Below are positions 7,026-20,509 of a stretch of DNA of 32,000 nt, piece after piece. Positions within the stretch are counted from its first letter, which is position 1; every line of letters starts with the position of its first letter. The position numbers and the translations under genes were made by a program. The DNA lies in contig CAVRAI010000015.1 in the NCBI GenBank assembly GCA_963718915.1, positions 210,001-242,000 on the forward strand, in the 5' to 3' direction. The notes under the pieces were generated by a model. That model was not told the origin of the DNA. It was given only the letters and a program-made list of their open reading frames with translations, and did not search any database. The DNA comes from an uncultured Chloroflexia bacterium. Its GTDB lineage: Bacteria; Chloroflexota; Ktedonobacteria; Ktedonobacterales; JADMIN01.

Positions 7026-7338
7026 CGTATCCCCCACTTTTGGGTAACTTTGGGTAGCCAGAGATATGATAGCACGCGAGGCAGAAAGAACAAGCGGATG
7101 TTGGACGGACATGTTGGGGCGCCGCGCCGTGGCCTAAAGCGCCACGGCTAATCCTGGTGCAACCATTCCCGCTTGCCATCGGAAGAGAGCGCCGAACCAG
7201 CGGGGTTAGCCGCAGGTCTTCAGCCTGCGGCGTGGGGTTACCAGCACGCCCCTCCCACAATCGTCCGCTCTCGCGTATACTACGGGTATATCGCGTGTCG
7301 CTCGCTTCACCTGATTCACTTCTTGAGGAGGCTGTCAC

Positions 7339-8487
7339 ATGGCCAACGCCCTGCCGATCTTTGTCAGCCACAGCCACGAGGATGCCGCCTTCTGCCAGGC
7401 GCTGGTGACGGCGCTCCGTGGCGCGGGCGCCGATGTCTGGTATGACGAGCACAATCTAGGCGCGGGCCATCTGATGGACGTCATTCAGCAGGAGCTTGAT
7501 CGCCGCAAAATCTTCATTGTCATCCTCTCGAAGCGCGCCTTCGCCTCCAAATGGGTCAAGCGTGAGACGGGCTGGGCATACTCGCTCTACGACCGCGACC
7601 CCACCCGCGTCATCTTGCCCGTGACGGCTGCCACCATCGAGCGCGACGACTTTAGCGGCGCGACCGGCTGGCTCTACCTGGAGGAGTTCAAGCGGATCGA
7701 GGCGCCAGGCTACCAGCCGTACCCGCAGGCCGAGGCGGTGGGCCGCGTGCTCCATGCACTTGCGCTGACCCCAGCAGGCGAGGCGCCTGCCCCAACTGCT
7801 CCACAGCCGAGCGAGAGTGTTGACGACCTACTGACCAAGGGCAAAGCGCTCATGGCACAGCACAAGGTGACAGAACCGATGCGGTTCTTTGAACGGGCCA
7901 CCGAGATTGATCCAAACAATTTCGACGCCTGGGCAAACCTGGGTCGTCTCTATCTGTGGGACGGACAGACGCAGCGGGGGCTTGATGCCATTGACCGGGC
8001 ACTCACCTTGCGTGACAACGATCCCTATATCTGGTTTTATCGAGGGCAGAGTATGTTCGGTCTGCAACGCTATGAGGAGGCGCTCGCGTCGTTTGACCAT
8101 GCACTAGCCCTGAACCTAGAGGCTGAAGAGGCTCCGAAACACCCGTTTTCCCGTGTCTATCTCTGGTACCACAAGGCTATTGCTTATGAGAAGTTGCAGC
8201 GCTACGAAGAGGCTTTGGATGCTTACGATCGCCAGCTGGCGAGCGATGACCACTACCGAGTTGACAATAGGCTTTGGTTCGGCAAAGGGCGTGCGCTCAT
8301 AAGCTTAAGGCGCTACAAAGAGGCGCTCGAAGCTATCGAGAACGCGAGTCGGGGTCTGTTTCTGTATCCCGGGGCCGACAAGCTAGAATTAGAATACTAC
8401 CGAGACAGAGCAATTGCTCTGCGCGGATTAGGACGAACTCGTGAAGCGAAGGAGGCTGAGGCGCGTGCGAAGGCACTGGGCGGGTAG
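7339..8487 (+). CDS. TIR-domain protein fused to C-terminal TPR repeats
   Basis: 382-aa ORF with GAGGAGG Shine-Dalgarno upstream. The N-terminus, IFVSHSHEDAAFCQALVTALRGAGADVWYDEHNLGAGHLMDVIQQELDRRKIFIVILSKRAFASKWVKRE, matches the TIR_2-type pattern (IF(V/I)S(H/Y)s..D...a..L...L...G..VW.D ... S.WV..E). The C-terminal half holds about 6 TPR-like 34-aa units (DAWANLGRLYLWDGQTQRGLDAIDRAL, YIWFYRGQSMFGLQRYEEALASFDHAL, and others). Confidence 0.85.
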   Translation: MANALPIFVSHSHEDAAFCQALVTALRGAGADVWYDEHNLGAGHLMDVIQQELDRRKIFIVILSKRAFASKWVKRETGWAYSLYDRDPTRVILPVTAATIERDDFSGATGWLYLEEFKRIEAPGYQPYPQAEAVGRVLHALALTPAGEAPAPTAPQPSESVDDLLTKGKALMAQHKVTEPMRFFERATEIDPNNFDAWANLGRLYLWDGQTQRGLDAIDRALTLRDNDPYIWFYRGQSMFGLQRYEEALASFDHALALNLEAEEAPKHPFSRVYLWYHKAIAYEKLQRYEEALDAYDRQLASDDHYRVDNRLWFGKGRALISLRRYKEALEAIENASRGLFLYPGADKLELEYYRDRAIALRGLGRTREAKEAEARAKALGG

Positions 8488-9604: not shown

Positions 9605-10182
9605 CTCGTCTGCCTCCTGCGCTGTTGAATACATGGACAACGTTGGCCAGTGTATCCGCCAACCTGACATATCGTAGTACAGGATGAGGCATCCGAAATC
9701 GCGCAAATGATGTGTTGTCTCTCAGTCTTTGGACTGAATCGGATATCTTTACCCTACACACCGCCACCTGGGCATTCTCAAGCGAGAGAAGGCAAATGCC
9801 TCGCCGCCAGGTCATAGGGCCAGGATGGCGCGCACGTCGTACTATGACCATGAATACTTGCCTTCACCATCCTCAAATCTATGCTCGCCCGCCGTAGTCC
9901 GCATGTTGCTTCGTAAGTTTAGTAAACGAGACTTGATTCTTTCCCGAATTCTGCTATCATGATTTGCACAATCGCGCGTAAGATATTCGCCCGAGTAAGA
10001 GCGTCTAATGACGTAAGAGGGCCGATGGCCAGCGCCATCGTGAGGATGGAAGCGCGGTTTGTCGCCTCGATTGTATATCTACTTGACCAGTTGCAAAAAC
10101 ATGATATCCTCGATTCTGAGTTCGACAGAACGACTATGCATAGTGTGGTATAGTTGGGGAAAACAGGCGACAACAGGAGGCA

Positions 10183-11433
10183 TTGATGGATGTCCAAAAG
10201 CTGGAGGCCGTAGATCCAACACTTGCGCATGAAATCAACACCTTTGCTGTCAGCATTCCGCGCGATGCCAAAATGGGGCTTGGCCGCCTGGAGAGTGTTG
10301 TGCAGCGATTTGACTACCTTTCGCCCGACGCGGCCAACCTGATCCTGGATCCCAACAGTTTTGCGCAAGAGGTCGAACAGATCTATGAAAGAAGGATCCC
10401 TTTCTGGATCATTATGCGCAACATTACCAGCATCCTTCCCTTGTTGGCGACCTGGATCTCCCTTTTTCTGGCATCAAACGCCTACAGCGATTTCATTAAG
10501 CATCCTCTTGAGGGACAAGATACTACGGCATCGTTCTTCGTCTTATGGCAGAACAGCTTTTATGGCCGCCCAACGTACTCTTTCTCCGTCGCCGCGATAA
10601 TCGACGTTGTTCTGCTGGCTCTCTTCCTCTACCTGACGATTTCGGTGCAGCGCCAGGAGCAGAGAGCGCAGACGAAGGCCACGGTATTTGCCAATAACCT
10701 TCAGGCGATCTCCACCCGCCTGGTCGGCTTCATCGCGGAAAAAGGCAGCATCGCGCTTCCTCCCGGCGCCAACGTCCAGACGGTGGCCGATGCGGTCAAT
10801 CGCGCCAGCACGCAGGCGATTCAGGCCAGCAGGCAGATTGCGGATGAGGCGCGGAAACACATCGACGACGCCGAGAAGCGTGTTGATGCCCTGGTGAATC
10901 AGTTATCGCAACGGCTCACCGACATCCAGACGCAGATGAAGGATCTGGCGACCGCGACGAATAGCCTCGGCACGTCGGCGACAACACTCTCGTCGGGCGC
11001 AACTTCACTTGCGGGCAGCGCGGGACAGTATATCGCGGCGGGGCAGGAAATCAAGCAACACTTATCAACCCTGAACCAGACCGAGACGCAGCTGACCCAG
11101 CATCTGGGTACGATTGCCACAAGCGTCAGCACGGCGGTCAACGGGTTCACCAGCGCGACCCAGGAGGTACAGACGCTCTCGAAACTGGTCGATCAGGCGT
11201 CACGGCACGTCGCGGGCGCCACCGGCAGCCTGCAGGCGACAGGGCAATCGCTCTATGACACCGCCCAGGAGCTTAGTCGTTCAGGTAGAGCGATCGAGGA
11301 CGCCTCCCATCAGTTCGAACAGGCCTTGCGGGTCGCTGGCTATAACAGCCGTCGCGGCGGCGGCGGGAGCGTCTTTGACTGGATGTTTCGGCGAGGCTCG
11401 AAGCGTCGCGTCCGAAAGGGAGGTACGCCATGA
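10183..11433 (+). CDS. Membrane protein: N-terminal cytoplasmic segment, 2 TM helices, long Ala/Thr/Ser/Gln-rich alpha-helical (coiled-coil-like) domain, basic tail
   Basis: 416-aa ORF with AGGAGG 6 nt upstream of the ATG. TM candidates are IPFWIIMRNITSILPLLATWISLFLA and FSVAAIIDVVLLALFLYLTISV. The helical region contains AEKRVDALVNQLSQRLTDIQTQMKDLATATNSLG. The C-terminus is RRGGGGSVFDWMFRRGSKRRVRKGGTP. The stop overlaps the next ATG (ATGA at 11430-11433). Confidence 0.8.
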   Translation: MMDVQKLEAVDPTLAHEINTFAVSIPRDAKMGLGRLESVVQRFDYLSPDAANLILDPNSFAQEVEQIYERRIPFWIIMRNITSILPLLATWISLFLASNAYSDFIKHPLEGQDTTASFFVLWQNSFYGRPTYSFSVAAIIDVVLLALFLYLTISVQRQEQRAQTKATVFANNLQAISTRLVGFIAEKGSIALPPGANVQTVADAVNRASTQAIQASRQIADEARKHIDDAEKRVDALVNQLSQRLTDIQTQMKDLATATNSLGTSATTLSSGATSLAGSAGQYIAAGQEIKQHLSTLNQTETQLTQHLGTIATSVSTAVNGFTSATQEVQTLSKLVDQASRHVAGATGSLQATGQSLYDTAQELSRSGRAIEDASHQFEQALRVAGYNSRRGGGGSVFDWMFRRGSKRRVRKGGTP

Positions 11434-12053
11434 TGCGCTCGCTTAGCAGTGAACGCAAGTTGCCGATCTATCTGCTCATCGATACATCGGCAGCAATGAG
11501 TGGGGCTGCGATTGATTCGATGAGAAGTTCTCTGCTCGAGTTGAAACACCAGCTCGTCGAGTCTCCACAGACGTTGGAGAACGCCCTGGTGAGTCTGATT
11601 GTTTTTAGTGATGTCGCGCGACTGTATGAGTTTGTGCCAATCGATGAACTGGACCCGCCTGCCCTGGTTGCGTCGGGAGGGCGATCCGTCGGGGCGGCCC
11701 TGCATGTGCTGGTCGAGTCGCTCCAGCATGATATCGATGCATTGCGGGTTGGTTCTCGCAGTCCGCAGCGTCCGCTGGTGGTCCTGGTTCTCGGCGGGCC
11801 GACAACCGACTCCTACGAGCGCGATCTCAACGCGCTCCTCGCGCTGCCAGCAGGGCGTCGACCAACGTTTGTCGTACTGGCCTGTGGTGATGCGGTCGAC
11901 ACATCGTTTTTGCAGCCGCTTCATCCATTCACATTTCACACAAGAGTGGTCACGCCGGAGACACTGGCGCAAGCGTTTGGCGTTGTCTCGCGGACGATCA
12001 TTCAGTCGTCGCGCGGAGTGCCGCGGGATACCCTGGTTCCGCCAGTCAATTAG
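11430..12053 (+). CDS. TerY-like von Willebrand factor A (vWA) domain protein, MIDAS-degenerate paralog 1
   Basis: 207-aa ORF. The N-terminus KLPIYLLIDTSAAMSGAAI has TerY/COG4245-like architecture. MIDAS DxSxS reads DTSAA, and the TDG position reads LGGPTTD. Confidence 0.85.
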   Translation: MMRSLSSERKLPIYLLIDTSAAMSGAAIDSMRSSLLELKHQLVESPQTLENALVSLIVFSDVARLYEFVPIDELDPPALVASGGRSVGAALHVLVESLQHDIDALRVGSRSPQRPLVVLVLGGPTTDSYERDLNALLALPAGRRPTFVVLACGDAVDTSFLQPLHPFTFHTRVVTPETLAQAFGVVSRTIIQSSRGVPRDTLVPPVN

Positions 12054-12137
12054 TAGTGGCTGGCGCTGCTCGCTCGTATATGCGCCAATGGAGCGAGTGG
12101 CAATGAGGCGATTCAGCCGTGCAGGCATGAAAGGGGC

Positions 12138-12809
12138 ATGGGACGTATGGATCCATCCATGGGTGGGCAGCAACGAAAATTTCCGGTGTATCTCCTGTTA
12201 GACTGTTCCAGTTCGATGTCAGGCGCGCCGATCATCGCCGTCAATGAAGGGCTGGAGCTTGTCTATCGAGAGTTGATGCGAGATCCGCAGGCGCGAGAAA
12301 GTGTCTGGATCAGTCTCATACGTTTTGCGTCCGCGGCTTCGCAGGATCCGCTGACTCCTATCGATCAATTTGTTCCGCCGACGGTCACTGCGAGTGGCAG
12401 CACGGCGATGGGCGGCGCGTTCACGCTCCTCGTCGATTCCATCAAACAGGACCTGGCGGCCAAGTCTGGTAGTCATCGCGGCGACTATCGCCCGCTGGTT
12501 TTCCTGCTGACAGACGGCGCCCCAACCGATAACTGGCAAGGCCCTGTGCAAAACCTGAAGGCGCTCAGCGGCGCGCAGAAACCCGCCATTGTCGCGCTGG
12601 GCTGTGGCGGCGGTGTGAACGCGCCGATGCTCAGTCAGGTCACGAGTGAAGTCTATTTGATGGCCAATGTCACGGGCGATCAGTTGAAGGCGTTCTTCCG
12701 CCTCATCTCGGGGTCTATCGTCTCGGCGTCACGCGCGGCGGGGGCGGGTGGCGAAGCCAGCATGCAGGCGCCAGACGCGATTCCCGGCGTCATCAAGTAC
12801 TCGCCGTAA
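12138..12809 (+). CDS. TerY-like vWA domain protein with canonical MIDAS, paralog 2
   Basis: 223-aa ORF. It contains KFPVYLLLDCSSSMSGAPI (DxSxS intact), ASGSTAMGGAF (Thr) and VFLLTDGAPTD (Asp). ATG 12147 has better spacing to AAGGGG than ATG 12138, so it is an alternative start. Confidence 0.9.
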   Translation: MGRMDPSMGGQQRKFPVYLLLDCSSSMSGAPIIAVNEGLELVYRELMRDPQARESVWISLIRFASAASQDPLTPIDQFVPPTVTASGSTAMGGAFTLLVDSIKQDLAAKSGSHRGDYRPLVFLLTDGAPTDNWQGPVQNLKALSGAQKPAIVALGCGGGVNAPMLSQVTSEVYLMANVTGDQLKAFFRLISGSIVSASRAAGAGGEASMQAPDAIPGVIKYSP

Positions 12810-12850
12810 TTCCCGGCGTTTTTGCCCGCGATGCGTCTCTACCCGGCCCG

Positions 12851-12895
12851 CGCATGTGCCGCATGTGTTGCGTGAGTCGCATGTGTCGTATGAAC
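12851..12895. repeat. Imperfect 9-bp tandem repeat x5 (cgcatgtgc cgcatgtgt tgcgtgagt cgcatgtgt cgtatgaac)
   Basis: Read directly from the sequence. It lies in the 205-bp gap between vWA paralogs 2 and 3. Confidence 0.6.
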
Positions 12896-13014
12896 CGCAG
12901 ACACTGGATGAGATGCATCGCGCCAAATGATAAAGCTCACCGGGCTGCTCTGGCGGCCCGGATAGTTGCGATGTAGCGCGCGATGCGCGACGGAGTCAGA
13001 GAAGAGGCTCAGCG

Positions 13015-13671
13015 ATGTCGGGAACCCGTGTGCGCCCAAGACGACTGCCGGTCTTCTTCCTCGTCGATGACTCCGCGGCCATGATCGGCGCCATGGCGGT
13101 CGCGGCCTCTGAAGGGTTGCAGGCGTTTCAGCGAGACGTACAGGCGCATGACATTGGCGTGCGCAGCGTCTACTTGAGTGTCTCCCTGCTGGGCGAACAG
13201 GCGTACACGTCGCCGCTCAACTCCCTCGCGCTTTTCACCATGCCGTCGTTCCAGGCGCAGGGCGAGTGTTCGCTCACTCCGGGGCTGCGGCACGTGCAAC
13301 GCGAGATTGACGACTCGGTGGTCGCGGACGCGCCCGAACAGTTGCGCGATCTGCACCCTACCGTCTTTGTCATTGTTGGTGGAGCGCTCAAAGACGACCC
13401 CGATGACCTGCGGGCGGCGGTGGATTCCCTTGCGCAGCTCGATGGCGCGCGGCGGCCACGGCTTTTTACCATCACCGCCGCGCGTGACCATGATGCGCTC
13501 AAGCTCCTGGGCGGCCATCTGCTGCAGATGTCGCACGCCGATGGCGACACTGTGGCGAATGCGTTCGCATGGGCCAGGGAACTTGTCATCGCTATCTGCG
13601 AGATGCAGGCGCGCGGTGAGCACGACCTGAATCTGCCAGCCTATCCCGCGGGAATCACACTCCTGTCGTAG
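13015..13671 (+). CDS. TerY-like vWA domain protein, MIDAS-degenerate paralog 3
   Basis: 218-aa ORF. RLPVFFLVDDSAAMIGAMAV has the same layout as the two upstream vWA genes. MIDAS reads DDSAA, and the TDG position reads VIVGGALKDD. Confidence 0.8.
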   Translation: MSGTRVRPRRLPVFFLVDDSAAMIGAMAVAASEGLQAFQRDVQAHDIGVRSVYLSVSLLGEQAYTSPLNSLALFTMPSFQAQGECSLTPGLRHVQREIDDSVVADAPEQLRDLHPTVFVIVGGALKDDPDDLRAAVDSLAQLDGARRPRLFTITAARDHDALKLLGGHLLQMSHADGDTVANAFAWARELVIAICEMQARGEHDLNLPAYPAGITLLS

Positions 13672-13773
13672 TGCTCGTACTGCGCGACTCAATCGAACGC
13701 CTGTGCTGCGCGAATCGCCGCCACTGGCTGGCGGCGCGTGATGCGTCGATCTATCGACCTCCACGGAGGGACA

Positions 13774-14091
13774 ATGGCTGGCATGAAGAAGTTCGGGTCG
13801 GGTTGTCTGAGAATTGCGCTCATGGCAGGCGTGATCGCGATTGTAATCGCGTTTGCCTTTCTCAGTTGGCCTAGGAGCGGCGCCATTCAGCTTTCTTCAC
13901 CGGATCATTCCAGAGACAGTCATGGCAGGGTGTCGCGCGACGTCTGCATTCCATCGAATCGCTATCCTGGCCGCCATCGTTCTGGCTGGTGGCATGCATC
14001 ATCGCTGGGTCTGATATTGGGCCGTGTGTTCTTTGCCAAGAGTCCGCGCCAAGAGACAAGTGCACAAGCGCAGGAGGTCTGGTTCCCATGA
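13774..14091 (+). CDS. Small hypothetical membrane protein (single clear N-terminal TM); reading frame downstream of about 13870 uncertain
   Basis: GGAGGG lies 4 nt upstream of ATG 13774. The product starts MAGMKKFGSGCLRIALMAGVIAIVIAFAFLSW. The remainder of this frame is Arg/Ser/His-rich. The two other forward frames carry hydrophobic stretches (FHRIAILAAIVLAGG; SFWLVACIIAG), so frame errors are possible. Confidence 0.4.
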   Translation: MAGMKKFGSGCLRIALMAGVIAIVIAFAFLSWPRSGAIQLSSPDHSRDSHGRVSRDVCIPSNRYPGRHRSGWWHASSLGLILGRVFFAKSPRQETSAQAQEVWFP

Positions 14092-15615
14092 TGAACGATA
14101 ACGCTCCCCGATACCGACGATGTAGAGCAATTGCGAGCGGATCGCAAGCAATACTATGACGATGCCCAGAACAACCAATAGAATGTACAACAACATGAAA
14201 GCCGACCGGGACAACGTACAGGCCGACCGGGATAATATTCAGCAACAACTGGATCAACTAAAAGCCGACAGGGAAAAAACAGTAAGCCGCGACAAATATG
14301 AGAGGCTTAAGCAAGATTATCAACTACTAGAAAGCGACTTTAAGCGCGCGCAAGACGGCCTATCAAACTGCACAAGAGATCAATCGAATCAGCTGCAACA
14401 GCAGATTGACCAGCCTTAACCGTGAAGTTGCGAACCTGCGCGGTGACAGTAATAACCTCACCTGGCGGCTACGAACCGCGAAAGAGCGCGAGCAGGCGCT
14501 GATGCTGGAGAACCAGGGGCGGGAGCGTGAGGTTCAGCGGTTGCGCGAGCGCCTCACGCAGTTGCAGCGGGGCGGAGCCGCCGGGCCTATCGCGACTGCG
14601 GAGTTTGCAGATCCTGAGCCGGGCGATCCGCCCGATTATGAGCGCGAGAAAGAGAAACACAACCATCGTAAGGTCATTCCTGAAAACGGTGGGCCGTTCC
14701 AACTGGCCGAAGGGTGGCGGCTTATCGGCGCCAGTCGGCGCGGACGCGGGCACGAACTTAACCATAAATATCGCGATGACGATTTCGCGGTACAGGTGTT
14801 TGGGAATGGGCGCGCGGTGGCGGTGGCCATCGCGGATGGCCTGGGCAGCAAGGAGTTCTCCCGCTGGGGCGCTCGCTCGGCGGTCAATGGCGCGATACTC
14901 GCCCTTGAGGAACGTGGCGTGCTGCAACTCGCCACCACGGTCGCAAAGCTGGGTGAGCAGCGACGGCCATCAGCTCGCACAAGCCTCACAAGCCGCACAG
15001 CGCCAGTTCGACGAAGAAATGTTTAACAGGCATAAAGCTCGTGATGAGTTCGCGAAACAACTGATCGAGCAGATGCTAGTTGGGGCGCGCGACATGGTTA
15101 GGCAGAAAGCGGATAAAGAATCCAAATCTGTCGATGAGCTGCACTCGACACTGCTGGTCTTTCTCGCGATTCCGCACAAGATGCCGCACAACGAGCAGTT
15201 CATGTTCTTCGCCAGCGCGCAGGTGGGCGATGGCGCAATACGGTCGGTCAGCCGCGCCACATCGAGCGGACAGTGGACGTTGCAGGAGCAGCCGCAGCTC
15301 AACGGCATCGACAATGAGGTGCAGCCGTTCATGCGTTTCGATCCCAGTCACTACCGCGATCGCGATTTCATTCATGTCACCGACCTGGAATCGCCCGAGT
15401 TCATCGTCGGCATGACCGACGGCACACTGGACGATATCGAGGGTGGTCCCGATGAGAATGGGCTATTCAAGGGCATCGAGGACTTCTATGGTCGCATCAG
15501 GCAAGAGGCGATAGCCACGCGCACACCCGCGTCGGGTTTATACGAGTTTCTGGGCTATCGGAAACGCGCCTCGTTCGATGATCGCACGCTCGTCTGTCTA
15601 TATCGGGGATCGTAG
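14088..15615 (+). pseudogene. Coiled-coil + PP2C-type (PP2C_2-like) Ser/Thr phosphatase, interrupted by about 4 frameshifts
   Basis: AGGAGG lies 10 nt upstream of ATGATG at 14088. The coherent protein requires frame changes 0->1 (about 14100), 1->2 (14160-14181), 2->0 (about 14410-14419) and 0->1 (about 14955-14965). The coiled coil reads QLRADRKQYYDDAQNNQ / KADRDNVQADRDNIQQQLDQLKADREK / LNREVANLRGD...EREVQRLRERLTQLQ. PP2C motifs are GASRRGRGHELNHKYRDDDFAV, AIADGLGS, QVGDGA, GMTDGTLDD and FDDRTLVCLY. Confidence 0.75.
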
Positions 15616-15627
15616 AGGAGAAAGCTT

Positions 15628-17074
15628 ATGCCATCGCCGTCGGTGACTGTGACCTATGCTGACAATACCACTGAAGAGTTCGTAGATGTTATTGGGCAGG
15701 GCGCGCAGGGCATCATTCTTGCCTCGCGGGATGGCCGCAGCGCCGTCAAGCTCTACCCTCCTAGCACCTCACTGGCCGATGCGCAGCGCCGTGCCGAAAT
15801 TATTTTGCGTCTCATCAATGAACTGAACCCGACCAGGGATGATCCCTACTGGCAAGACTACTTCACCTGGCCCGAAAAACTGGTCGTCAGCCCTCTGATA
15901 GGCTATCGTATGCGCCTCGCCGCGAATATGAAGACGATGGCGAATTATGTTTCCCAAAAACATTCAACAGCATGGCCCCCAAAGACCAGGGGTGGTTCCT
16001 GGGACGCATGGCCGCCGCCATCAAGATCGCCAACGTCGCCCAGCGCATGTCGGCGCGTGGCATCTGCTATCCAGACTTCTCCTTCAACAACGTGATGCTC
16101 GACGCCTTCGACGGGCGCATGACGCTTGATCGACTGCGACAGTATTACCGTTCCGGGCACCGTGCCCCCGGAGGTGATTGGCACGTTTAATTTCTGGCGC
16201 CAGAGCTGTGGAGCCAGCAGCAGAAGATTCCCACCGTCACGAGCGACCGCCACTCGCTGGCGACGGTGCTCTACTACCTGCTGGTCGGCTATCATCCGCT
16301 GATAGGGTGACAAAGTCCATTTCCCCGACGATCCTGACAAGGACGATGTGGCGCGCCTTGGCCCGCAGGCGCTCTATATCGAGGACCCCAACGACCAGTC
16401 GAACCGGAATGCTACACCAGCGCATCTTTGCCAGCATGCTCGGTACAGAACTGGACGAACTCTTCCGCGAGGTGTTTGTCGCGGGGCTACATCATCCTAC
16501 CGCTCGCCCGCAGCCGCAGCAGTGGCTTCCGGCGCTTGTGCGTGCCTTTGACCGGATTGTTCCCTGCGAGACGCCCGCGCCGCAGTGCTGGTGGCACAGC
16601 TTTGTCGCGCTTCCGCAGAACAACTTCACCTGTCCCTGCTGCAATCAGCGCCTCCGGGAGCCACGTACGCTGCCGTTTGTCTACCTGTTGCCGCATAACA
16701 AGACCAAAGATCCCGAAGCCTATGACGAGGCCATTGGCCGCGATAAGCATCACATCGTGGGCTGGCCGGAGCGCTCGCTCTTTGAATGGCATACGATCAT
16801 CGGCAAGCCCGCCTGGCACACCGACCCGCAGCATCCGGTCTCGCGCACGCCACAGGCTACATTCCTACATAACAGCGGCAGCGACGAGTGGCAGTTGCGG
16901 AACGATGCGCTGCCGGAGATGGCGGTGCGTAGCGGAGGATCGTGGACCCCGGTGGCGCGGGGAGCGTCCACACCGCTGACCCACGGCACGGTGCTTCGCT
17001 TTGGTCCTGGGCCTGTTGTCGGCTCCGGCCCCGTTTATTATCGCGCGCGGGTTGTGCTGCACCATCTGGCATAA
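15628..17074 (+). pseudogene. Hanks-type Ser/Thr protein kinase (TerY-P/YegI-like) with C-terminal Cys4 ribbon and beta-rich tail, interrupted by about 5 frameshifts
   Basis: GAGGAG Shine-Dalgarno precedes ATG 15628. Kinase motifs are spread over three frames. Frame 1 has IGQGAQGIIL and SAVKLY. Frame 0 has ICYPDFSFNNVML. Frame 1 has LIDCDSITVPG. Frame 0 has LAPELW...SDRHSLATVLYYLLVGYHPL. Frame 1 has DKVHFPDDPDKDDVARLGPQALYIEDPNDQSNR. Frame 2 has LHQRIFASMLGTELDELF...CETPAPQCWWH...FTCPCCNQ.... Junctions lie at about 15945-15955, 16126-16129, 16189-16195, 16305-16310 and 16405-16415. Confidence 0.8.
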
Positions 17075-17084
17075 GGGGGAACGC

Positions 17085-17627
17085 ATGCCATTGCGCGCTA
17101 TTCCGAAGATAGATGAGCGCCAACCGTGGCCGACGATTACGATCTCGACGCGCGAGCGCGAAGTAATCGCCACGCCTGCTCACGCGCCCGCGCCCGTGCC
17201 GGGGTCGAGAAAGACCACCCATCCCTTAGCGCAAAAAAGGGTCACGGCGCCGCCGAGCCACACGCAGGGAACACAGAACCCGCCACCGCTGCCGCCGCTG
17301 TCAGCATCGCCGGGTGGCGCGGGAAGCGTTGTGTTGGGATGGCTCGCCGCTTTCCCCAAGGGTGCGCTGATCGGCGCTACCTTGTTTGCGATCTATTATG
17401 GATTCTTTCTCAATCGCGCGTTCTGGCTGGTCGATTGGCACTGGGCCTATCTCGCGGGTGGAGTGGTTCTGGCCACCATCCTGATTCGCTTCGACCGCAT
17501 GCTGATCCTGCTGGCGGCTGTTGGGTTGTGGTATAGCCGCGCGACCCTGCTAGATGCGCCGGAGCTGTTCGCGGTCTGGATTGCTGGTGGCATTATTGGT
17601 CGGCTACTGTATGAGGCGTTGCCGTAA
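17085..17627 (+). CDS. Hypothetical membrane protein (Pro-rich N-terminal region + 3-4 TM helices)
   Basis: ORF 17001..17627. The start is placed at ATG 17085, which follows AAGGGGGA and lies 10 nt after the kinase stop. TM candidates are VVLGWLAAFPKGALIGATLFAIYYGFF, WAYLAGGVVLATILI, MLILLAAVGLWY and LFAVWIAGGIIGRLLY. Confidence 0.7.
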   Translation: MPLRAIPKIDERQPWPTITISTREREVIATPAHAPAPVPGSRKTTHPLAQKRVTAPPSHTQGTQNPPPLPPLSASPGGAGSVVLGWLAAFPKGALIGATLFAIYYGFFLNRAFWLVDWHWAYLAGGVVLATILIRFDRMLILLAAVGLWYSRATLLDAPELFAVWIAGGIIGRLLYEALP

Positions 17628-17647
17628 GTTTGTCTGAGGAGGCCGTC

Positions 17648-18007
17648 ATGGCAAGAGACCTGCCCTACCTGCCCAGTCCAGCTGCATCCGGGTCGTGGCC
17701 GACGTTTAGTCTCGATATGGGTACCCGCCAGAACATCGCAAGCGGGAGAGGTCCGCGAGCCAGTGGGTCGAATCCTTCCCCGCAAGGCGCTCACGTAGGT
17801 GTGATGCCGCCGCCACCCTTGAACCCTGGCGGCGCACAGGACTCTAACCCCGGCGGAGTAGGGGGCGGCAACGTGGTACGTCGGTACGATCCGGCTACAG
17901 GCCAAATTATTCGTACCCCGCAGGCGCAAACGCATGCCACTAGGCCGGGCGAGCCGGGTGGGATCAAACCGGCGAAACAACCCATCCGGACGGCTGGTCC
18001 GCAATAA
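17648..18007 (+). CDS. Hypothetical Pro/Gly-rich, probably disordered protein
   Basis: GAGGAGG lies 6 nt upstream of ATG 17648, which is 20 nt after the previous stop. The 119-aa product is low-complexity (PPPPLNPGGAQDSNPGGVGGG). Coding status is supported mainly by the SD and the operon context. Confidence 0.5.
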   Translation: MARDLPYLPSPAASGSWPTFSLDMGTRQNIASGRGPRASGSNPSPQGAHVGVMPPPPLNPGGAQDSNPGGVGGGNVVRRYDPATGQIIRTPQAQTHATRPGEPGGIKPAKQPIRTAGPQ

Positions 18008-18082
18008 CGAAAAGAACAAAAGATGGTCTGTGATGCTCCATAGCGGGGCGTGTTTTGGGGTACTGGGTAAGGCAGGATTGTC

Positions 18083-18659
18083 ATGCTGAATCGTCAACGC
18101 GATAGTCATGGGCCAAATGTAGGCTGGCTGTTTGCCGATCTGCTTCTTGCGCTGGCGGTGATCTTTCTGGTCGCCAACGCCTCTGGCTCTATCGCTAAAT
18201 CTGTCAGGCCCATCATGACGCCCACCCCGACGTTGGCGCCAACGCCTGTGCCGCCGCCGCCGCCATCGACCAAGAACTATTTCGCATTTCCCATCAAGTT
18301 TGATGACTTTGCTCTGGAGAGTGGAGACGGTAGCACGGCTACAGCATCGTACGCGACCAGATTGAAGCCCGACTGACAGAGAAGGGCTATGCAATTCGTG
18401 TGGAGCCGTGCTGGTGCTTGTCTTTGGTGGCACCCCTTCACTGGATGATCGCTATGCGACAAATCGTGCGACAAACGCCGCTGATGCCGTCATCAACCAG
18501 TTGAAAGCGGAGGGCAGTCAGGGTTTTGTCTTCACCAAGGCACAATACCATTCGCCGTTCCTCTTCAAAAGCCAGTTTGGCATGGTGCAAGATTCAGGTC
18601 TACTTTTTCAACACCTCCAAACAGTGCGAGCCGTAGCCTGTGATACGAAATACGTTTAG
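18083..18659 (+). pseudogene. Hypothetical single-pass membrane protein (TM + Pro-rich linker + globular domain), interrupted by 2 frameshifts
   Basis: ATG 18083. Frame 2 reads GWLFADLLLALAVIFLVANA...PTPTLAPTPVPPPPPSTKNYFAFPIKFDDFALESGDGST. Frame 1 (from about 18340-18347) reads SIVRDQIEARLTEKGYAIRVE. Frame 0 (from about 18400-18408) reads VLVLVFGGTPSLDDRYATNRATNAADAVINQLKAEGSQGFVF... and runs to the stop at 18659. Confidence 0.6.
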
Positions 18660-18681
18660 CATGTTGTCGTTGGGCGCCTGT

Positions 18682-18810
18682 CTGTAGCGTAAACGCTACG
18701 GCGCGCGCACCAAACCGCAACAACCCAGACGGACTTGGTGTGAGCGGAGAGGCTACAGCGAATTTCCCGTCTGCATCATTTGCCCATTCGCCGTAGCATT
18801 TACGCTTCGG
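18682..18810. repeat. Hairpin-bounded intergenic element between convergent genes (possible bidirectional terminator or REP-like element)
   Basis: ctgtagcgtaaacgctacgg (18682-18701, stem gtagcg/cgctac) and ccgtagcatttacgcttcgg (18791-18810) are related near-palindromes that flank about 90 bp of non-coding sequence. Confidence 0.4.
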
Positions 18811-18820
18811 CCTGCTCCCC

Positions 18821-20509
18821 TTACTCAAGCGTCACATCAGTGCGGACGACCCCGGCGCGGTCGTGGCGGGCGATCAGCTTCACCACGCCGCCCCGAGGCG
18901 CGCGCACGACCCACTCGGCGCTGGCGCGGTCGGTCGTCGGGTCGCCCACATCCCAACCAAAGGGCGACGACGGCTTGTAGGCGCGCCCCTCCACCTGGCC
19001 GAGCACCAGCCGTGTGTGGCCCGATGCCAGCGACGCGCCCTCCGGCAGCTCGATCTCGCAGACCACGCCACGCACCAGCTTATTGTCCAGCGCGCTCTTC
19101 ATCACATAGGTGGGCAGCCAGCCGCTATTCTGCACCGCCAGCCGCACGCGATACGCTCCATCGCCCAGCGGCGCCGCGCTCGCCTCGAAAAGCTCAAGGC
19201 GTGGCGAGATGAGCAATTGCCAGACCAGCCAGCGCGGGAACTTCGCCAGCTCGCGTTCGAGGAACTGCGACGGCGGATTCGAGAAAGCGTAGAACTCATT
19301 CCAGCCGCCCAGTTCCACCGGGCCAAGTTGCGGATGCTCGAAGGGATACCAGTCGATGTAGCCTTTGCCTTCCAGCGCCTCATCGCTCCACTTCAGCAGC
19401 TTCTGGTCGTCCTCCAGCGGATGCTCGCGGAACCAGTCGATATATTTGTAGTCGGTGATGCCGGCCTCACGCTGCGGACTCCATATCTCCACCGTCCAGG
19501 CGAAGACGCCCAGGTGCGCGACCATCCAGTCGTCGAGCGCGCCGGTAATGACCGATTTGGGATGGTACTTGAAGTCGTGAAAGACGGAGATGTTGGGGTA
19601 GCCGCTGATCTCTGTGCCTTTCGCGCCAATCTTCTGATACGTCCAGAGATCCTCGGCGGAGAAGTTCTCGTCGCTCTGGTGGCTGAAGGGCCGGAGTAGC
19701 ACCCCGGCAAACGTGTGAAACGCAACGCCGCCCGTGATGTTGGGATGCTCGGCGATGAAGTGTACCAGCGCGCGTACCTCTGGCTCCGACGTCGGATAGG
19801 CGCCCGCGCCCCGCTGCTCATGCTCCTGCCGCCAGAGCGCTGGAAAGTTGCGGTTGAGGTCCAGACCCTCCTTCGGCGGCTGAATCGTAATCTCCACGCC
19901 GTCAAAGTCGCGCAGTTGACCCTCTGGCAGCACCCGGTAATACTGCCCGCCCGTCTCATCTGGCTCGCGGCGCACCAGCAGGCGCGGCTCATCTGGGCAG
20001 ACCTTCCAGGCGCCATTGGGGTCGGGGATGCGCATGGCCAGGATACGGCCATCGCCGTCAATATCTTCGGTCAGCAGGCCGTGCGTGTGCTCCTCATCGT
20101 AGGGATAGGCGCGCGTGCTAGAGCGGATGAACTTTGGCATATCGGCCAGCGCCCACTCCGCGCCATCGGGATTGACGCGCGGGCAGACGTAGAAGACGCG
20201 CGTATCGAGGCAGCGGGTAATATCGTCGTCGTTGCCATAGCCGCTGGCCAGCGTGTTGAGCAGATAGAGACACGCGCTCGAGGGCGAGACCTCGGTCGCG
20301 TGGATGTTGCCGTCCACCCAGAGCGCGGGTTTCTCGCTAGCCTCGCCCGTGGCGAAGTTCGTCACCGCCACAACCCAGATATCGCGGCCCTCGTGGCTCT
20401 TGCCGATACTCTCAACCCGCATCAACTGGGGATTCTCTTCGGCGAACGCCTGAACCAGCCGCGTCAGGTCGTCGTAGCGATAGAACCGGTCGAATCGTAT
20501 CTCAGGCAT
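18821..20509 (-). CDS. M14-family zinc metallocarboxypeptidase
   Basis: ORF 18821..20557. The start is placed at ATG 20509 (MPEIRFDRFYRYDDL), which is preceded by GGAG. ATG 20521 is an alternative. M14 signatures are GKSHEGRDIWVV, ALWVDGNIHATEVS (HxxE zinc site) and GVAFHTFAGVLLRP. Confidence 0.9.
   Translation of the reverse strand: MPEIRFDRFYRYDDLTRLVQAFAEENPQLMRVESIGKSHEGRDIWVVAVTNFATGEASEKPALWVDGNIHATEVSPSSACLYLLNTLASGYGNDDDITRCLDTRVFYVCPRVNPDGAEWALADMPKFIRSSTRAYPYDEEHTHGLLTEDIDGDGRILAMRIPDPNGAWKVCPDEPRLLVRREPDETGGQYYRVLPEGQLRDFDGVEITIQPPKEGLDLNRNFPALWRQEHEQRGAGAYPTSEPEVRALVHFIAEHPNITGGVAFHTFAGVLLRPFSHQSDENFSAEDLWTYQKIGAKGTEISGYPNISVFHDFKYHPKSVITGALDDWMVAHLGVFAWTVEIWSPQREAGITDYKYIDWFREHPLEDDQKLLKWSDEALEGKGYIDWYPFEHPQLGPVELGGWNEFYAFSNPPSQFLERELAKFPRWLVWQLLISPRLELFEASAAPLGDGAYRVRLAVQNSGWLPTYVMKSALDNKLVRGVVCEIELPEGASLASGHTRLVLGQVEGRAYKPSSPFGWDVGDPTTDRASAEWVVRAPRGGVVKLIARHDRAGVVRTDVTLE

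What the first reader, a model, noticed from the sequence alone, without database searches (positions are those of the whole stretch)
10183..18659. Ten-gene, membrane-associated, expanded TerY-P-triad-like locus without any Ter genes
All ten genes are on the + strand with overlaps or very short gaps:
- ATGA overlap at 11430-11433.
- 12-nt gap at 15616-15627.
- 10-nt gap at 17075-17084.
- 20-nt gap at 17628-17647.

Gene order is as follows:
1. A 2-TM coiled-coil protein.
2. Three TerY-like vWA paralogs.
3. A small TM protein.
4. A coiled-coil PP2C phosphatase.
5. A Ser/Thr kinase with a Cys4 ribbon.
6. A 4-TM protein.
7. A disordered Pro/Gly-rich protein.
8. A TM protein with a Pro-linker.

Established knowledge: vWA (TerY) + PP2C + Ser/Thr kinase is the TerY-P triad, defined by comparative genomics of tellurite-resistance (ter) operons. 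The E. coli yegL/yegK(pphC)/yegI genes are an example. As far as I recall, TerY-P is also catalogued as an anti-phage system in defence-system databases.

Unusual here: the vWA genes are triplicated, there are five extra membrane or disordered partners, a coiled-coil extension sits on the phosphatase, and TerB/TerC/TerD/TelA are completely absent.

Inference: this is a membrane-tethered vWA scaffold controlled by a kinase/phosphatase switch, possibly sensing envelope or phage stress.
Basis: partly seen in the sequence, partly recalled or inferred. Interest (0 to 1): 0.85.

Follow-up and report, generated by a model that had tools for sequence, protein, structure and literature searches.

The report
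TerY-P kinase–phosphatase operon with stator-like membrane pair
This is a nine-gene operon that joins a known signalling trio (adhesion-type vWA proteins, a phosphatase and a kinase) to an undescribed pair of membrane proteins that may resemble a flagellar-stator-type ion motor; this genome's copy is riddled with frameshifts, but close relatives carry it intact.

Summary
The vWA–PP2C–kinase core is a genuine TerY-P triad, homologous to E. coli YegL/PphC/YegI.

Three corrections are needed:
- There are nine genes, not ten. The "small TM protein" is most likely the severed two-TM anchor of the PP2C.
- Here the PP2C, the kinase and the last gene carry about 15–17 frameshifting indels. g1, the three vWA genes, g8, g9 and all flanking genes are intact. 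Relatives at about 89% nucleotide identity (L051, L053) and more distant ones (L038, L042, L003) are intact.
- Multiple vWA copies, a coiled-coil PP2C and the absence of ter genes are ordinary for this subfamily.

What is new is the accessory set. g1 (two TM helices plus a long helical tail) and g10 (one TM with an invariant GWLFADL motif, a Pro/Thr linker and an α/β domain) form a conserved pair in Chloroflexota and an actinobacterium. In one metagenomic contig the pair sits beside an HSP70–vWA system instead.

The g10 TM aligns its Asp with the proton-relay Asp of ExbD, TolR and MotB. The g1 model most resembles TolQ/ExbB. Each of these signals is weak on its own. No Pfam, NCBIfam or PADLOC model covers g1, g8, g9 or g10.

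Verdict: a new variant of a known kind, of moderate interest.

The parts
10186..11433 (+). g1: N-terminal helical domain, two TM helices (about residues 77-100 and 134-157; invariant Thr89 and Trp121, near-invariant Asp140) and a roughly 250-residue Q/T/S/A-rich helical tail. Intact.
   Evidence: P0132 is this protein, on a 1.04-Mb public contig; 260 representative clusters share the N-terminal module; AF2 pLDDT 93.6; the best PDB fold matches are TolQ/ExbB chains, not significant.
11430..12053 (+). vWA1, a TerY-type vWA paralog whose MIDAS motif reads DxSxA. Intact.
   Evidence: (VWA 21.6 bits).
12159..12809 (+). vWA2, the best-conserved vWA, with a complete DxSxS MIDAS motif. Intact.
   Evidence: VWA 32.1 bits; 79% identical to L038; 34% identical to E. 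coli YegL, E 1e-28.
13015..13671 (+). vWA3, a divergent vWA paralog with no Pfam hit and a degenerate MIDAS motif. Intact.
   Evidence: (cross-matches the vWA ORFs of relatives, E down to 3e-27).
13774..15615 (+). Membrane-anchored coiled-coil PP2C phosphatase, disrupted.
   Evidence: (PP2C_2, E 5.4e-20 after frame correction).
13866..14005 (+). Cluster of six single-base insertions (13866, 13890, 13914, 13956, 13987, 14005) and one 3-nt insertion, relative to the 89.5%-identical relative L051. The cluster destroys the second TM helix.
15628..17074 (+). YegI-type Ser/Thr kinase with a zinc ribbon and a C-terminal beta-rich domain. It is disrupted by five 1-nt indels (15951 -1, 16126 +1, 16188 -1, 16304 +1, 16410 +1). 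The catalytic motifs are otherwise preserved.
   Evidence: 77-78% identity over the full length to intact homologues; L053 has an intact 479-aa kinase.
16565..16642 (+). Cys4 zinc ribbon of the kinase (C-x6-C-x14-C-x2-C, read from the frame-2 translation).
   Evidence: sequence; C315, C322, C337 and C340 invariant in 41 homologues.
17085..17627 (+). g8: a Pro-rich N-terminus with a PWPT motif, followed by a multi-TM C-terminal half. Intact. It follows the kinase in relatives.
   Evidence: Logan contig L052 encodes the identical protein; only an in-frame indel relative to L053.
17648..18007 (+). g9: a small Pro/Gly-rich protein with the same N-terminal WPT motif. Intact.
18083..18636 (+). g10: an N-terminal TM helix with the invariant GWLFADL motif, a Pro/Thr linker and an extracytoplasmic alpha/beta domain. 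It is disrupted by two or three frameshifts (about 18350, about 18400, about 18561).
   Evidence: (the truncated 97-aa ORF is in the public record as P0111).
9933..10110 (+). Two sigma-70-like promoter matches in the 476-nt intergenic region upstream of g1. This is weak evidence.

Best explanation
The locus is one operon with two layers.

**Layer 1 (shown by homology).** This is a TerY-P phospho-signalling triad of the YegL/PphC/YegI type. It has three cytoplasmic TerY-type vWA proteins, of which only vWA2 keeps a full MIDAS motif. It has a PP2C phosphatase whose ancestral form carries a two-TM anchor and a coiled coil. It has a Ser/Thr kinase fused to a Cys4 zinc ribbon and a beta-rich C-terminal domain.

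**Layer 2 (conservation shown, mechanism inferred).** Four accessory proteins have no described family. g1 and g10 are an obligate pair. I infer that they form a membrane complex built like the MotAB/ExbBD/TolQR/ZorAB ion-driven stators:
- g10 would be the 'B' subunit. It has a cytoplasmic basic N-terminus, a TM helix with an invariant Asp, a linker, and a wall-facing alpha/beta domain.
- g1 would be a minimal two-TM 'A' subunit, with a long cytoplasmic helical tail comparable to that of ZorA.

**Proposed working (inferred).** A disturbance of the envelope or cell wall, such as phage entry or wall damage, changes the state of the g1/g10 complex. The g1 tail passes this to the vWA proteins and to the membrane-tethered PP2C/kinase pair, which set a phosphorylation threshold. 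g8 and g9 share a (P)WPT peptide motif and are candidate vWA ligands or kinase substrates. No classical toxin or nuclease is encoded in the cassette, so the output may be membrane-based or act in trans.

**State of this copy.** The PP2C, the kinase and g10 are broken by about 15-17 frameshifting indels. The copy is therefore either recently inactivated or locally mis-assembled. The intact state is seen in close relatives.

**Confidence.** The figure of 0.6 applies to the whole picture. Layer 1 and the synteny of the accessory genes are near-certain. The motor reading of g1/g10 alone is about 0.35.
For: **Triad**
- PP2C_2 at E 5.4e-20.
- vWA2 against YegL at E 1e-28.
- Kinase profile against YegI at 98.9% probability.
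- Invariant Gly-loop, Lys, catalytic Asp/Asn, DxD, APE and four Cys.

**Operon and synteny**
- Overlaps or gaps of 20 nt or less at four junctions.
- The same nine genes in the same order in L038, L042 and L003.

**g1-g10 pair**
- Adjacent in L005, L008 and L011, in Streptosporangium L045 (g1-g10-vWA-PP2C-kinase) and in L046.
- Wherever g1 was found on a long enough contig, g10 was found too.

**g10**
- GWLFADL is invariant in 37 of 37 sequences.
- The Asp aligns with ExbD D25 (E 0.08), TolR D23 (E 0.03) and MotB D32 (E 0.015).
- The AF2 model has pLDDT 88.5. Its C-terminal domain best matches OmpA-like domains and the peptidoglycan-binding domain of SiiA (E 4e-3, probability 0.98).

**g1**
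- The AF2 model has pLDDT 93.6.
- About 27 of the top 50 PDB matches are TolQ or ExbB chains, with probability up to 0.96 and TM-score 0.42-0.49.
- An invariant Thr in TM1 and a near-invariant Asp in TM2.

**Conflict context**
- A g1 homologue ends in a TIR domain, and a kinase homologue starts with one.
- The TerY-P form with an OB-fold kinase is a tested anti-phage system (PMC11090510; PMC7699616).

**Selection**
- g8 and g9 differ from L053 only by in-frame indels.
- The part of g1 covered by L051 (from 10975) and vWA1-3 show no coding indels against L051.
Against: - No sequence-level link between g1 and MotA/ExbB/TolQ was found. Pfam hit none of 70 family members. The profile search of PDB sequences gave only spurious TALE-repeat sums. 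hhalign against TolQ and ExbB was not significant.
- All Foldseek E-values for g1 are above 0.28. Two-TM helical hairpins are easy to superpose.
- The TM matches for g10 are short (16-20 residues) and individually non-significant.
- I saw no OmpA-type peptidoglycan-binding motif in the g10 family consensus (read by eye).
- In the window g1 and g10 lie 6.6 kb apart, at opposite ends of the operon.
- Outside one Chloroflexota clade and one actinobacterium, the triad occurs without g1/g10, so the pair is accessory.
- No effector is identified.
- An anti-phage role is not tested, and PADLOC does not recognise the locus.
Confidence: 0.6

Rival explanations
1. g1 and g10 are passive structural proteins, not an ion-driven motor. 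g1 is a membrane-anchored helical scaffold, comparable to EzrA or to chemoreceptor-like bundles, that tethers the vWA, PP2C and kinase proteins. g10 is a single-pass wall-contacting anchor. The resemblance to ExbBD/TolQR is convergent.
For: - No significant sequence similarity of g1 to MotA, ExbB or TolQ.
- The Foldseek hits also include chemoreceptor cytoplasmic domains, AhlC and HlyD helical hairpins.
- Pfam, NCBIfam and PADLOC hits to g1 all fall in the coiled-coil tail.
Against: - A charged Asp inside a single-pass TM helix is invariant in 37 of 37 g10 homologues, within a seven-residue invariant motif. That is hard to explain for a mere anchor.
- The Asp falls on the functional Asp of three different stator B subunits.
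- TolQ and ExbB make up about half of the top 50 fold matches among 350,542 PDB chains.
- g1 TM residues Thr89 and Asp140 are conserved across 260 clusters.
Confidence: 0.3
2. The frameshifts are assembly or polishing errors in the public contig, not biology. The organism carries an intact, functional operon.
For: - The frameshifted genes show no excess amino-acid divergence relative to L038 and L042.
- By eye, the catalytic and Cys4 residues are intact in the corrected proteins.
- The indels cluster tightly (seven in 140 nt, five in 460 nt). Most sit next to multi-base differences from the 89%-identical strains L051 and L053, as expected where a consensus mixes co-occurring haplotypes.
- All six 1-nt changes at 13866-14005 are insertions.
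- A related ENA record has a Flye-style name ('contig_26862'), which suggests long-read metagenomes in this data series. This is an inference and was not checked for this contig.
Against: - About 20 kb of flanking and interleaved genes in the same window have no frameshift. A general error rate therefore cannot explain the pattern.
- Few of the indels lie in long homopolymers.
- The density (about 1 per 220 nt) is below the indel density of the intergenic spacers against L051 (5 in 391 nt). Neutral decay of dead genes could produce it.
- The only independent 100%-identical contig (L052) covers an indel-free stretch and is uninformative.
Confidence: 0.5
3. The cassette is not an anti-phage system. 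It is an envelope-stress or developmental signalling module of filamentous, multicellular bacteria (Ktedonobacteria, Actinobacteria).
For: - The window flanks are largely housekeeping (Sua5, AspRS, M14 peptidase) and contain no mobile-element genes.
- No nuclease or toxin effector lies in the cassette.
- Kaur et al. 2020 (PMC7159879) find kinase-ZnR/PP2C/vWA and HSP70 themes strongly tied to a multicellular habit.
- PADLOC is silent on the locus.
Against: - TIR fusions occur in both the g1 and the kinase families.
- A TIR-TPR gene and a STAND-like regulator lie just upstream.
- L001 sits beside IS elements and cas3.
- The cassette shows patchy distribution, weaker GC3 contrast than its neighbours, and rapid divergence of g1, g9 and g10.
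- Kaur et al. themselves read these systems as conflict systems.
Confidence: 0.35

Closest known systems
TerY-P triad (TerY-type vWA + PP2C + Ser/Thr kinase-zinc ribbon; E. coli YegL/PphC/YegI; Anantharaman, Iyer & Aravind 2012, as summarised in PMC11090510)
   Same: All three components are present, adjacent and homologous to the E. coli proteins. The kinase carries the C-terminal zinc ribbon. The triad occurs independently of ter genes, as in E. coli.
   Different: - There are three vWA paralogs.
- The PP2C is membrane-anchored through two TM helices and a coiled coil.
- Four extra conserved genes (g1, g8, g9, g10) are embedded in the same operon.
- The Pfam Pkinase score is below threshold.
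TerY-P anti-phage system of Gao et al. 2020 (PADLOC model STK_OB)
   Same: The same three enzyme classes in one cassette.
   Different: [quoted passage not shown]
- The STK_OB model does not hit the window kinase, and hits only 5 of 41 relatives, weakly.
- No PADLOC model hits the vWA or PP2C proteins.
Zorya ZorAB, and the wider 5:2 stator family (MotAB, ExbBD, TolQR, SiiAB)
   Same: - A two-gene membrane pair.
- The B-like subunit has an N-terminal TM helix carrying an invariant Asp, and an extracytoplasmic alpha/beta domain with its best fold matches to OmpA-like and SiiA domains.
- The A-like subunit has a TM hairpin that best matches TolQ/ExbB, and a long cytoplasmic helical tail as in ZorA.
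   Different: - g1 has two TM helices, where I recall ExbB/TolQ having three and MotA four (background knowledge, not tested here).
- g1 has no detectable sequence homology to MotA_ExbB.
- No ZorC, ZorD or ZorE match appeared for any cassette protein in PADLOC.
- The partner module is a phospho-switch.
DO-GTPase/GAP1-N2 conflict systems with kinase-ZnR/PP2C/vWA or HSP70/GrpE/DnaJ-FNIII themes (Kaur et al. 2020, PMC7159879)
   Same: - The same accessory themes are seen next to the g1-g10 pair: L045 has vWA-PP2C-kinase, and L046 has GrpE-HSP70-HSP70/vWA-DnaJ/FN3.
- The phyla are the same (Actinobacteria, Chloroflexi).
   Different: No DO-GTPase or GAP1 protein is present in the window or in the loci read. 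In the passages of that paper that I read, I found no description of the g1-g10 pair.
Motor-coupled vWA proteins (TolQ-like pentamer plus TM-tethered vWA; PMC12204202)
   Same: It is a precedent for 5:2-type motors working together with vWA proteins, including an Asp-bearing trans-pore helix.
   Different: There the vWA domain is periplasmic and fused to the trans-pore helix, and the TolQ homologue is recognisable by sequence. Here the vWA proteins are separate, with no predicted TM helix in vWA1 or vWA2, so they are probably cytoplasmic.

Membership tests
TerY-P triad (YegL/PphC/YegI type) | TerY-type vWA protein | tested here: met
   vWA2 against E. coli YegL: 34% identity over 156 aa, E 1e-28. 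Pfam VWA 32.1 bits, above the cut-off. vWA1 and vWA3 are divergent paralogs.
TerY-P triad (YegL/PphC/YegI type) | PP2C-family phosphatase encoded next to the vWA gene | tested here: met
   Frame-corrected protein: PF13672 PP2C_2, E 5.4e-20. N-terminal PP2C motifs align with PphC, E 9e-4.
TerY-P triad (YegL/PphC/YegI type) | Ser/Thr kinase fused to a C-terminal zinc ribbon | tested here: met
   hhalign of the 41-member family against YegI: probability 98.9%, E 1.8e-17 over 295 columns. Four invariant Cys. Pfam Pkinase reaches only 17.4 bits, below the cut-off.
TerY-P triad (YegL/PphC/YegI type) | The three genes form one conserved cassette | tested here: met
   vWA-PP2C-kinase order in most of the 35 genome loci, across Chloroflexota, Planctomycetota, Verrucomicrobiota and Lentisphaeria.
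TerY-P anti-phage system as catalogued (Gao 2020 / PADLOC) | Kinase matches the STK_OB model (kinase plus OB fold) | tested here: not met
   No STK_OB hit for the window kinase at E up to 1. Only 5 of 41 relatives hit, best E 2.3e-4. The C-terminus is a zinc ribbon plus a beta-rich domain.
TerY-P anti-phage system as catalogued (Gao 2020 / PADLOC) | Protection against phage | not testable with these tools
   Requires expressing an intact homologue and challenging it with phage.
5:2 ion-driven stators (MotAB/ExbBD/TolQR/ZorAB) | B subunit: single N-terminal TM helix with an essential, conserved Asp | tested here: met
   GWLFADL is invariant in 37 of 37 sequences. The Asp aligns with ExbD D25, TolR D23 and MotB D32. 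Each alignment is short, with E 0.015-0.08.
5:2 ion-driven stators (MotAB/ExbBD/TolQR/ZorAB) | B subunit: extracytoplasmic wall- or partner-binding domain (OmpA-like or TolR-like) | tested here: inconclusive
   The AF2 model (pLDDT 88.5) best matches OmpA-like and SiiA peptidoglycan-binding domains (E 4e-3 to 5e-2, TM-score 0.43-0.51). I saw no OmpA-type peptidoglycan-binding motif in the family consensus (by eye).
5:2 ion-driven stators (MotAB/ExbBD/TolQR/ZorAB) | A subunit homologous to MotA/ExbB/TolQ | tested here: inconclusive
   By sequence, not met. By fold, TolQ and ExbB chains make up about half of the top 50 PDB matches, but E is at least 0.28.
5:2 ion-driven stators (MotAB/ExbBD/TolQR/ZorAB) | A and B genes are co-inherited, usually adjacent | tested here: met
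   Adjacent in L005, L008, L011, L045 and L046. In one operon but at opposite ends in the window, L003, L038 and L042.
5:2 ion-driven stators (MotAB/ExbBD/TolQR/ZorAB) | 5:2 stoichiometry and ion flux | not testable with these tools
   No multimer prediction tool was available. Experiments are needed.
Zorya | ZorC/ZorD/ZorE-type effectors next to ZorAB | tested here: not met
   No PADLOC hit to ZorB-E. The ZorA hits cover only the coiled-coil tail of g1.
DO-GTPase/GAP1-N2 systems (Kaur 2020) | DO-GTPase and GAP1 core proteins | tested here: not met
   No GTPase or GAP1 Pfam hit among the window ORFs or among the genes listed for L045 and L046.

The most novel reading that the evidence does not exclude
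g1 and g10 found a new, highly diverged family of 5:2-type ion-driven membrane motors. The family would have a minimal two-TM 'A' subunit with a long cytoplasmic tail and an Asp-bearing 'B' subunit anchored to the wall. In monoderm filamentous bacteria it would act as an envelope sensor wired to a TerY-P phospho-switch, or alternatively to HSP70-vWA modules. It would be a Zorya-like defence logic with a kinase/phosphatase/vWA output in place of ZorC/D.
Probability: 0.3. Interest if true: 0.8.

Novelty: new variant of a known kind. Interest (0 to 1): 0.55.

Why it matters
The TerY-P triad is widespread and is listed as a defence system, but none of the papers I read gives its input or its output. 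A conserved membrane pair with stator-like hallmarks, embedded in the same operon, offers a concrete and testable input: an envelope or wall disturbance sensed at the membrane.

The same pair also occurs beside an HSP70–vWA module. This suggests it may be a portable sensor for vWA-based systems in general.

If the motor reading holds, it would extend the MotAB/ExbBD/ZorAB family to a minimal two-TM form in Chloroflexota and Actinobacteria.

For this particular genome the practical message is more modest. The copy is frameshifted and should not be annotated or cloned as it stands. Intact templates exist (L038, L042, L003 and L053).

Tried and rejected
- **Pfam, NCBIfam and PADLOC on g1, g8, g9 and g10.** Only coiled-coil noise for g1, and nothing for the others.
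- **Profile of the g1 N-terminus against PDB sequences.** The top hits were TALE repeat proteins. I rejected these as sums of many sub-threshold repeats (each with i-Evalue above 300).
- **hhalign of g1 against TolQ and ExbB.** Not significant.
- **Direct BLASTP of the 'small TM' ORF against the N-terminus of the L042 PP2C.** Not significant. The link came instead from the 89.5%-identical L051.
- **The search for homologous proteins with full-length g1.** It was swamped by low-complexity words and returned only 6 hits. I solved this by an exhaustive search with residues 1-200.
- **The Anantharaman 2012 paper.** It is not held.
- **Rfam.** No RNA family in the window.
- **Promoter and terminator scan.** It gave nothing decisive about sub-operons. 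There is only a weak 5-bp hairpin at 12802-12818.
- **Relative-rate comparison.** It could not separate a pseudogene from an assembly artefact.
- **GC3 frame plot.** It was too coarse to survey frameshifts elsewhere.

Full report
**1. What is in the sequence**

Between 10183 and 18659 every substantial ORF is on the + strand.

The region does not contain ten intact genes, however. Three-frame translation shows that the phosphatase, the kinase and the last gene each continue in another frame.

After joining the frames:
- The phosphatase (485 aa) matches Pfam PP2C_2 at E 5.4e-20.
- The kinase (479 aa) aligns over 99% of its length, at 77-78% identity, with intact proteins of 473-478 aa from other assemblies.

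**2. The frameshifts**

I wrote a frameshift-aware protein-to-DNA alignment and ran it against two intact relatives. It places five frameshifts in the kinase at the same positions with both references. It finds none in g1, vWA2, vWA3 or g9, and only weakly supported ones at the divergent C-terminus of vWA1 and, with L042 only, in the Pro-rich linker of g8; tblastn shows all six of these genes in a single frame over their full length.

Two short contigs from a strain about 89.5% identical at the DNA level settle the details.
- L053 encodes an intact 479-aa kinase. Against it the window has single-base indels at 15951 (-1), 16126 (+1), 16188 (-1), 16304 (+1) and 16410 (+1). g8 and g9 differ only by in-frame indels of 6, 6 and 3 nt.
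- L051 covers the end of g1 through the start of the phosphatase. In the part of g1 it covers (from 10975) and in vWA1-3 there is no coding indel at all. Between 13866 and 14005 the window carries six single-base insertions and one 3-nt insertion.

In L051 the ATG at window position 13774 opens an ORF with two TM helices that runs off the contig. In the window the second helix is scrambled by the insertions.

Phosphatase ORFs in L003, L004, L005, L007, L008, L009, L011 and L042 all carry two TM helices ahead of a coiled coil and the PP2C domain.

Further shifts lie between about 14064 and 14160, at about 14333-14414 and at about 14955-15008 in the phosphatase, and at about 18350, 18400 and 18561 in g10. 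The homologous g10 reading frame ends near 18636.

The total is roughly 15-17 frameshifting indels in 3.9 kb. About 20 kb of other genes in the window are intact, with full-length domain matches. These include an MFS transporter, a MalT-like regulator, a TIR-TPR protein, two response regulators, an M14 peptidase, Sua5, an 825-aa PP2C and AspRS.

The truncated 97-aa g10 ORF and the g1 protein are present as such in NCBI/ENA on a 1,044,980-bp contig. The frameshifts therefore belong to the public assembly.

**3. Real decay or artefact?**

I could not decide this.

For an artefact:
- The broken genes show no extra amino-acid divergence.
- By eye, their catalytic and Cys4 residues are preserved.
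- The indels are tightly clustered, and most sit beside multi-base differences from the co-occurring 89% strain. This is what a mixed-haplotype consensus would produce.

For real decay:
- The rest of the window is clean.
- Few of the indels are in long homopolymers.
- The indel density is lower than in the intergenic spacers against L051 (5 events in 391 nt).

The only independent 100%-identical contig (L052, from run ERR11563127) spans 16582-17757, which has no indel. Mapping the reads would settle the question.

**4. The core is a TerY-P triad**

- vWA2 is 34% identical to E. coli YegL (E 1e-28).
- The 41-member kinase alignment matches YegI with 98.9% probability over 295 columns, ending in the CPxC of the zinc ribbon.
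- The phosphatase N-terminus aligns with PphC.
- The kinase family keeps the Gly-loop, the Lys, the catalytic Asp/Asn, a DxD in place of DFG, APE, and four invariant Cys.

The definition I used comes from Bell et al. (PMC11090510): a TerY-like vWA, a PP2C and a Ser/Thr kinase fused to a zinc ribbon. The same paper notes that the experimentally tested anti-phage version (Gao et al. 2020) has an OB fold instead.

Consistent with that, PADLOC's STK_OB model does not hit the window kinase and hits only 5 of 41 relatives, weakly. No PADLOC model hits the vWA or PP2C proteins.

A scan of one genome per species found 35 loci with this kinase family. They come from Ktedonobacteria, Anaerolineae, Planctomycetota, Verrucomicrobiota and Lentisphaeria, and most have vWA-PP2C-kinase in that order.

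In that set, two or three vWA genes are common (L009, L021, L023-25, L036), and long N-terminal extensions on the PP2C are the rule. E. coli yegL-pphC-yegI also has no ter gene in the stretch read.

**5. The accessory genes do co-travel**

The same nine genes in the same order occur in:
- L038-41 (Logan, SRR345022xx);
- L042-44 (NCBI GCA_037025105.1 and a sister assembly);
- L003 (a Ktedonobacteria MAG whose kinase is 52% identical).

These are shown.

In L005, L008 and L011 the order changes. g10 sits immediately after g1, upstream of the vWA genes, and g8 still follows the kinase.

A g10 homologue from Streptosporangium lies in g1-g10-vWA-PP2C-kinase order (L045). A g1 homologue from a farmland metagenome is followed by a g10 homologue, and is preceded by GrpE, HSP70, an HSP70-vWA fusion and a DnaJ-FN3 protein (L046).

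So g1 and g10 are a pair that travels with vWA-based modules. More distant triads (Verrucomicrobiota and others) lack them within 10 kb, so the pair is accessory to a subclade.

**6. What g1 and g10 look like**

g10:
- g10 homologues (37 aligned) share an invariant GWLFADL at the start of their single TM helix. A Pro/Thr linker and a roughly 100-residue α/β domain follow.
- The profile's only TM match in the PDB is ExbD, with the Asp on ExbD D25.
- hhalign puts the same Asp on TolR D23 and MotB D32. All three matches are short, with E between 0.015 and 0.08.
- The AF2 model (pLDDT 88.5) has a β-α-β-α-β-β domain. Its best PDB matches are OmpA-like domains and the peptidoglycan-binding domain of SiiA, which is itself a MotB-like protein by my background knowledge (E 4e-3, probability 0.98, TM-score 0.43-0.51).

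g1:
- The first 200 residues of g1 define a family of 260 representative clusters.
- The family shares a conserved 'RN..sL.PLI.TW.aL' helix, a 'PFL.LWQ.GF' loop, and a 'TFs..A..DV.LL' helix. The helical tails that follow vary, and protein lengths run from about 400 to 750 aa.
- The AF2 model of residues 1-185 is confident (pLDDT 93.6).
- About 27 of its 50 best PDB matches are TolQ or ExbB chains (probability up to 0.96, TM-score 0.42-0.49, about 160 aligned residues). E-values are 0.3-3.
- Sequence methods show nothing.

The stator reading thus rests on several weak signals that agree:
- an Asp-bearing B-like helix;
- a B-like outer domain;
- an A-like hairpin with a conserved Thr and Asp;
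- strict gene pairing;
- a ZorA-like tail.

From memory, GldL is a precedent for an A subunit with two TM helices; I did not check this. PMC12204202 describes TolQ-like motors working with vWA proteins.

**7. g8, g9 and hints of a conflict role**

g8 (Pro-rich N-terminus, multi-TM C-terminus) and g9 (Pro/Gly-rich) share an N-terminal motif, 'lP…(P)WPT[ILF]x[ILV]'. The g8 HMM even picks up the g9 protein of L001. They could be common ligands of the vWA proteins or substrates of the kinase. This is speculation.

Several observations point to a conflict role:
- One g1 homologue (P0153) ends in a TIR domain.
- One kinase homologue (P0064) begins with a TIR domain. That domain is closely similar (phmmer E 1e-36) to the TIR of the TIR-TPR gene at 7339-8487, 1.7 kb upstream of the cassette.
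- L001 sits next to IS elements and cas3.
- The cassette has a weaker GC3 contrast than its housekeeping neighbours.

Kaur et al. 2020 describe kinase-ZnR-β-rich/PP2C/vWA and HSP70/GrpE/DnaJ-FNIII themes within DO-GTPase/GAP1-N2 conflict systems of multicellular bacteria (PMC7159879). No GTPase or GAP1 is present here. In the passages I read, I found no description of the g1-g10 pair.

**8. Verdict**

There are nine genes, and three of them are broken here.

The TerY-P assignment is supported, and membership of the YegL/PphC/YegI-type triad is met on all sequence criteria tested. Membership of the catalogued anti-phage TerY-P (STK_OB) is not met.

The new element is the conserved g1-g10 (plus g8 and g9) membrane set and its possible stator-like nature. 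I put that reading at about 0.3-0.4 for the full motor hypothesis.

I rate the locus a new variant of a known kind, with interest 0.55.

Noticed in passing
window 7339-8487 (+): A TIR-TPR protein lies 1.7 kb upstream of the cassette. Its TIR domain matches (phmmer E 1e-36) the N-terminal TIR domain that is fused to a homologue of the cassette kinase in another organism (P0064, 637 aa). This suggests a possible effector link.
   Followed up: partly
protein P0153 (g1-family member, 747 aa): A g1 homologue carries a C-terminal TIR domain at the end of its helical tail.
   Followed up: partly
window 17085-17160 and 17648-17720; alignments: g8 and g9 share an N-terminal short motif, 'lP..(5-8)..(P)WPT[ILF]x[ILV]', which is conserved in L001, L003, L006, L038 and L042. 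The g8 HMM cross-hits the g9 protein of L001.
   Followed up: partly
L046:289-10081: A g1-g10 pair lies directly after GrpE, HSP70, an HSP70-vWA fusion and a DnaJ-FN3 protein, with no kinase or PP2C called on the 12.6-kb contig. In E. coli the HSP70-family gene yegD sits next to yegI.
   Followed up: partly
window 13866-14005: Six single-base insertions, all insertions, spaced 24, 24, 23, 19, 31 and 18 nt apart (counting one 3-nt insertion in the series), relative to the 89.5%-identical L051. They net to zero frame change, so the ORF stays open although its middle is scrambled.
   Followed up: yes
L052 (Logan ERR11563127) = window 16582-17757: An independent contig is 100% identical to the window, but it covers only an indel-free stretch. 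The same run could be used to check the frameshifts.
   Followed up: partly
L001:2604-6018 and 14770-19497: In this relative the triad is flanked by several transposase genes upstream and by HD, WYL and Cas3-like genes downstream. It has one vWA gene and lacks g1 and g10.
   Followed up: no
window 22639-25116 (+): A second, unrelated 825-aa protein has an N-terminal PP2C domain, 4 kb downstream of the cassette.
   Followed up: no
window 3993-7112 (-): A 1039-aa MalT-like regulator (AAA_16 ATPase, MalT-type TPR region, LuxR/GerE HTH) lies upstream, next to the TIR-TPR gene.
   Followed up: no
window 12802-12818 (+): A weak terminator-like hairpin (5 G-C pairs followed by TTTTT) sits at the end of vWA2, at the start of the 205-nt spacer before vWA3. 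That spacer also differs by a 20-nt indel from L051.
   Followed up: no
window 10001-19000: The cassette has a lower G+C content (0.55-0.63) and a weaker third-position GC contrast than the flanking housekeeping genes. This is consistent with horizontal acquisition.
   Followed up: no
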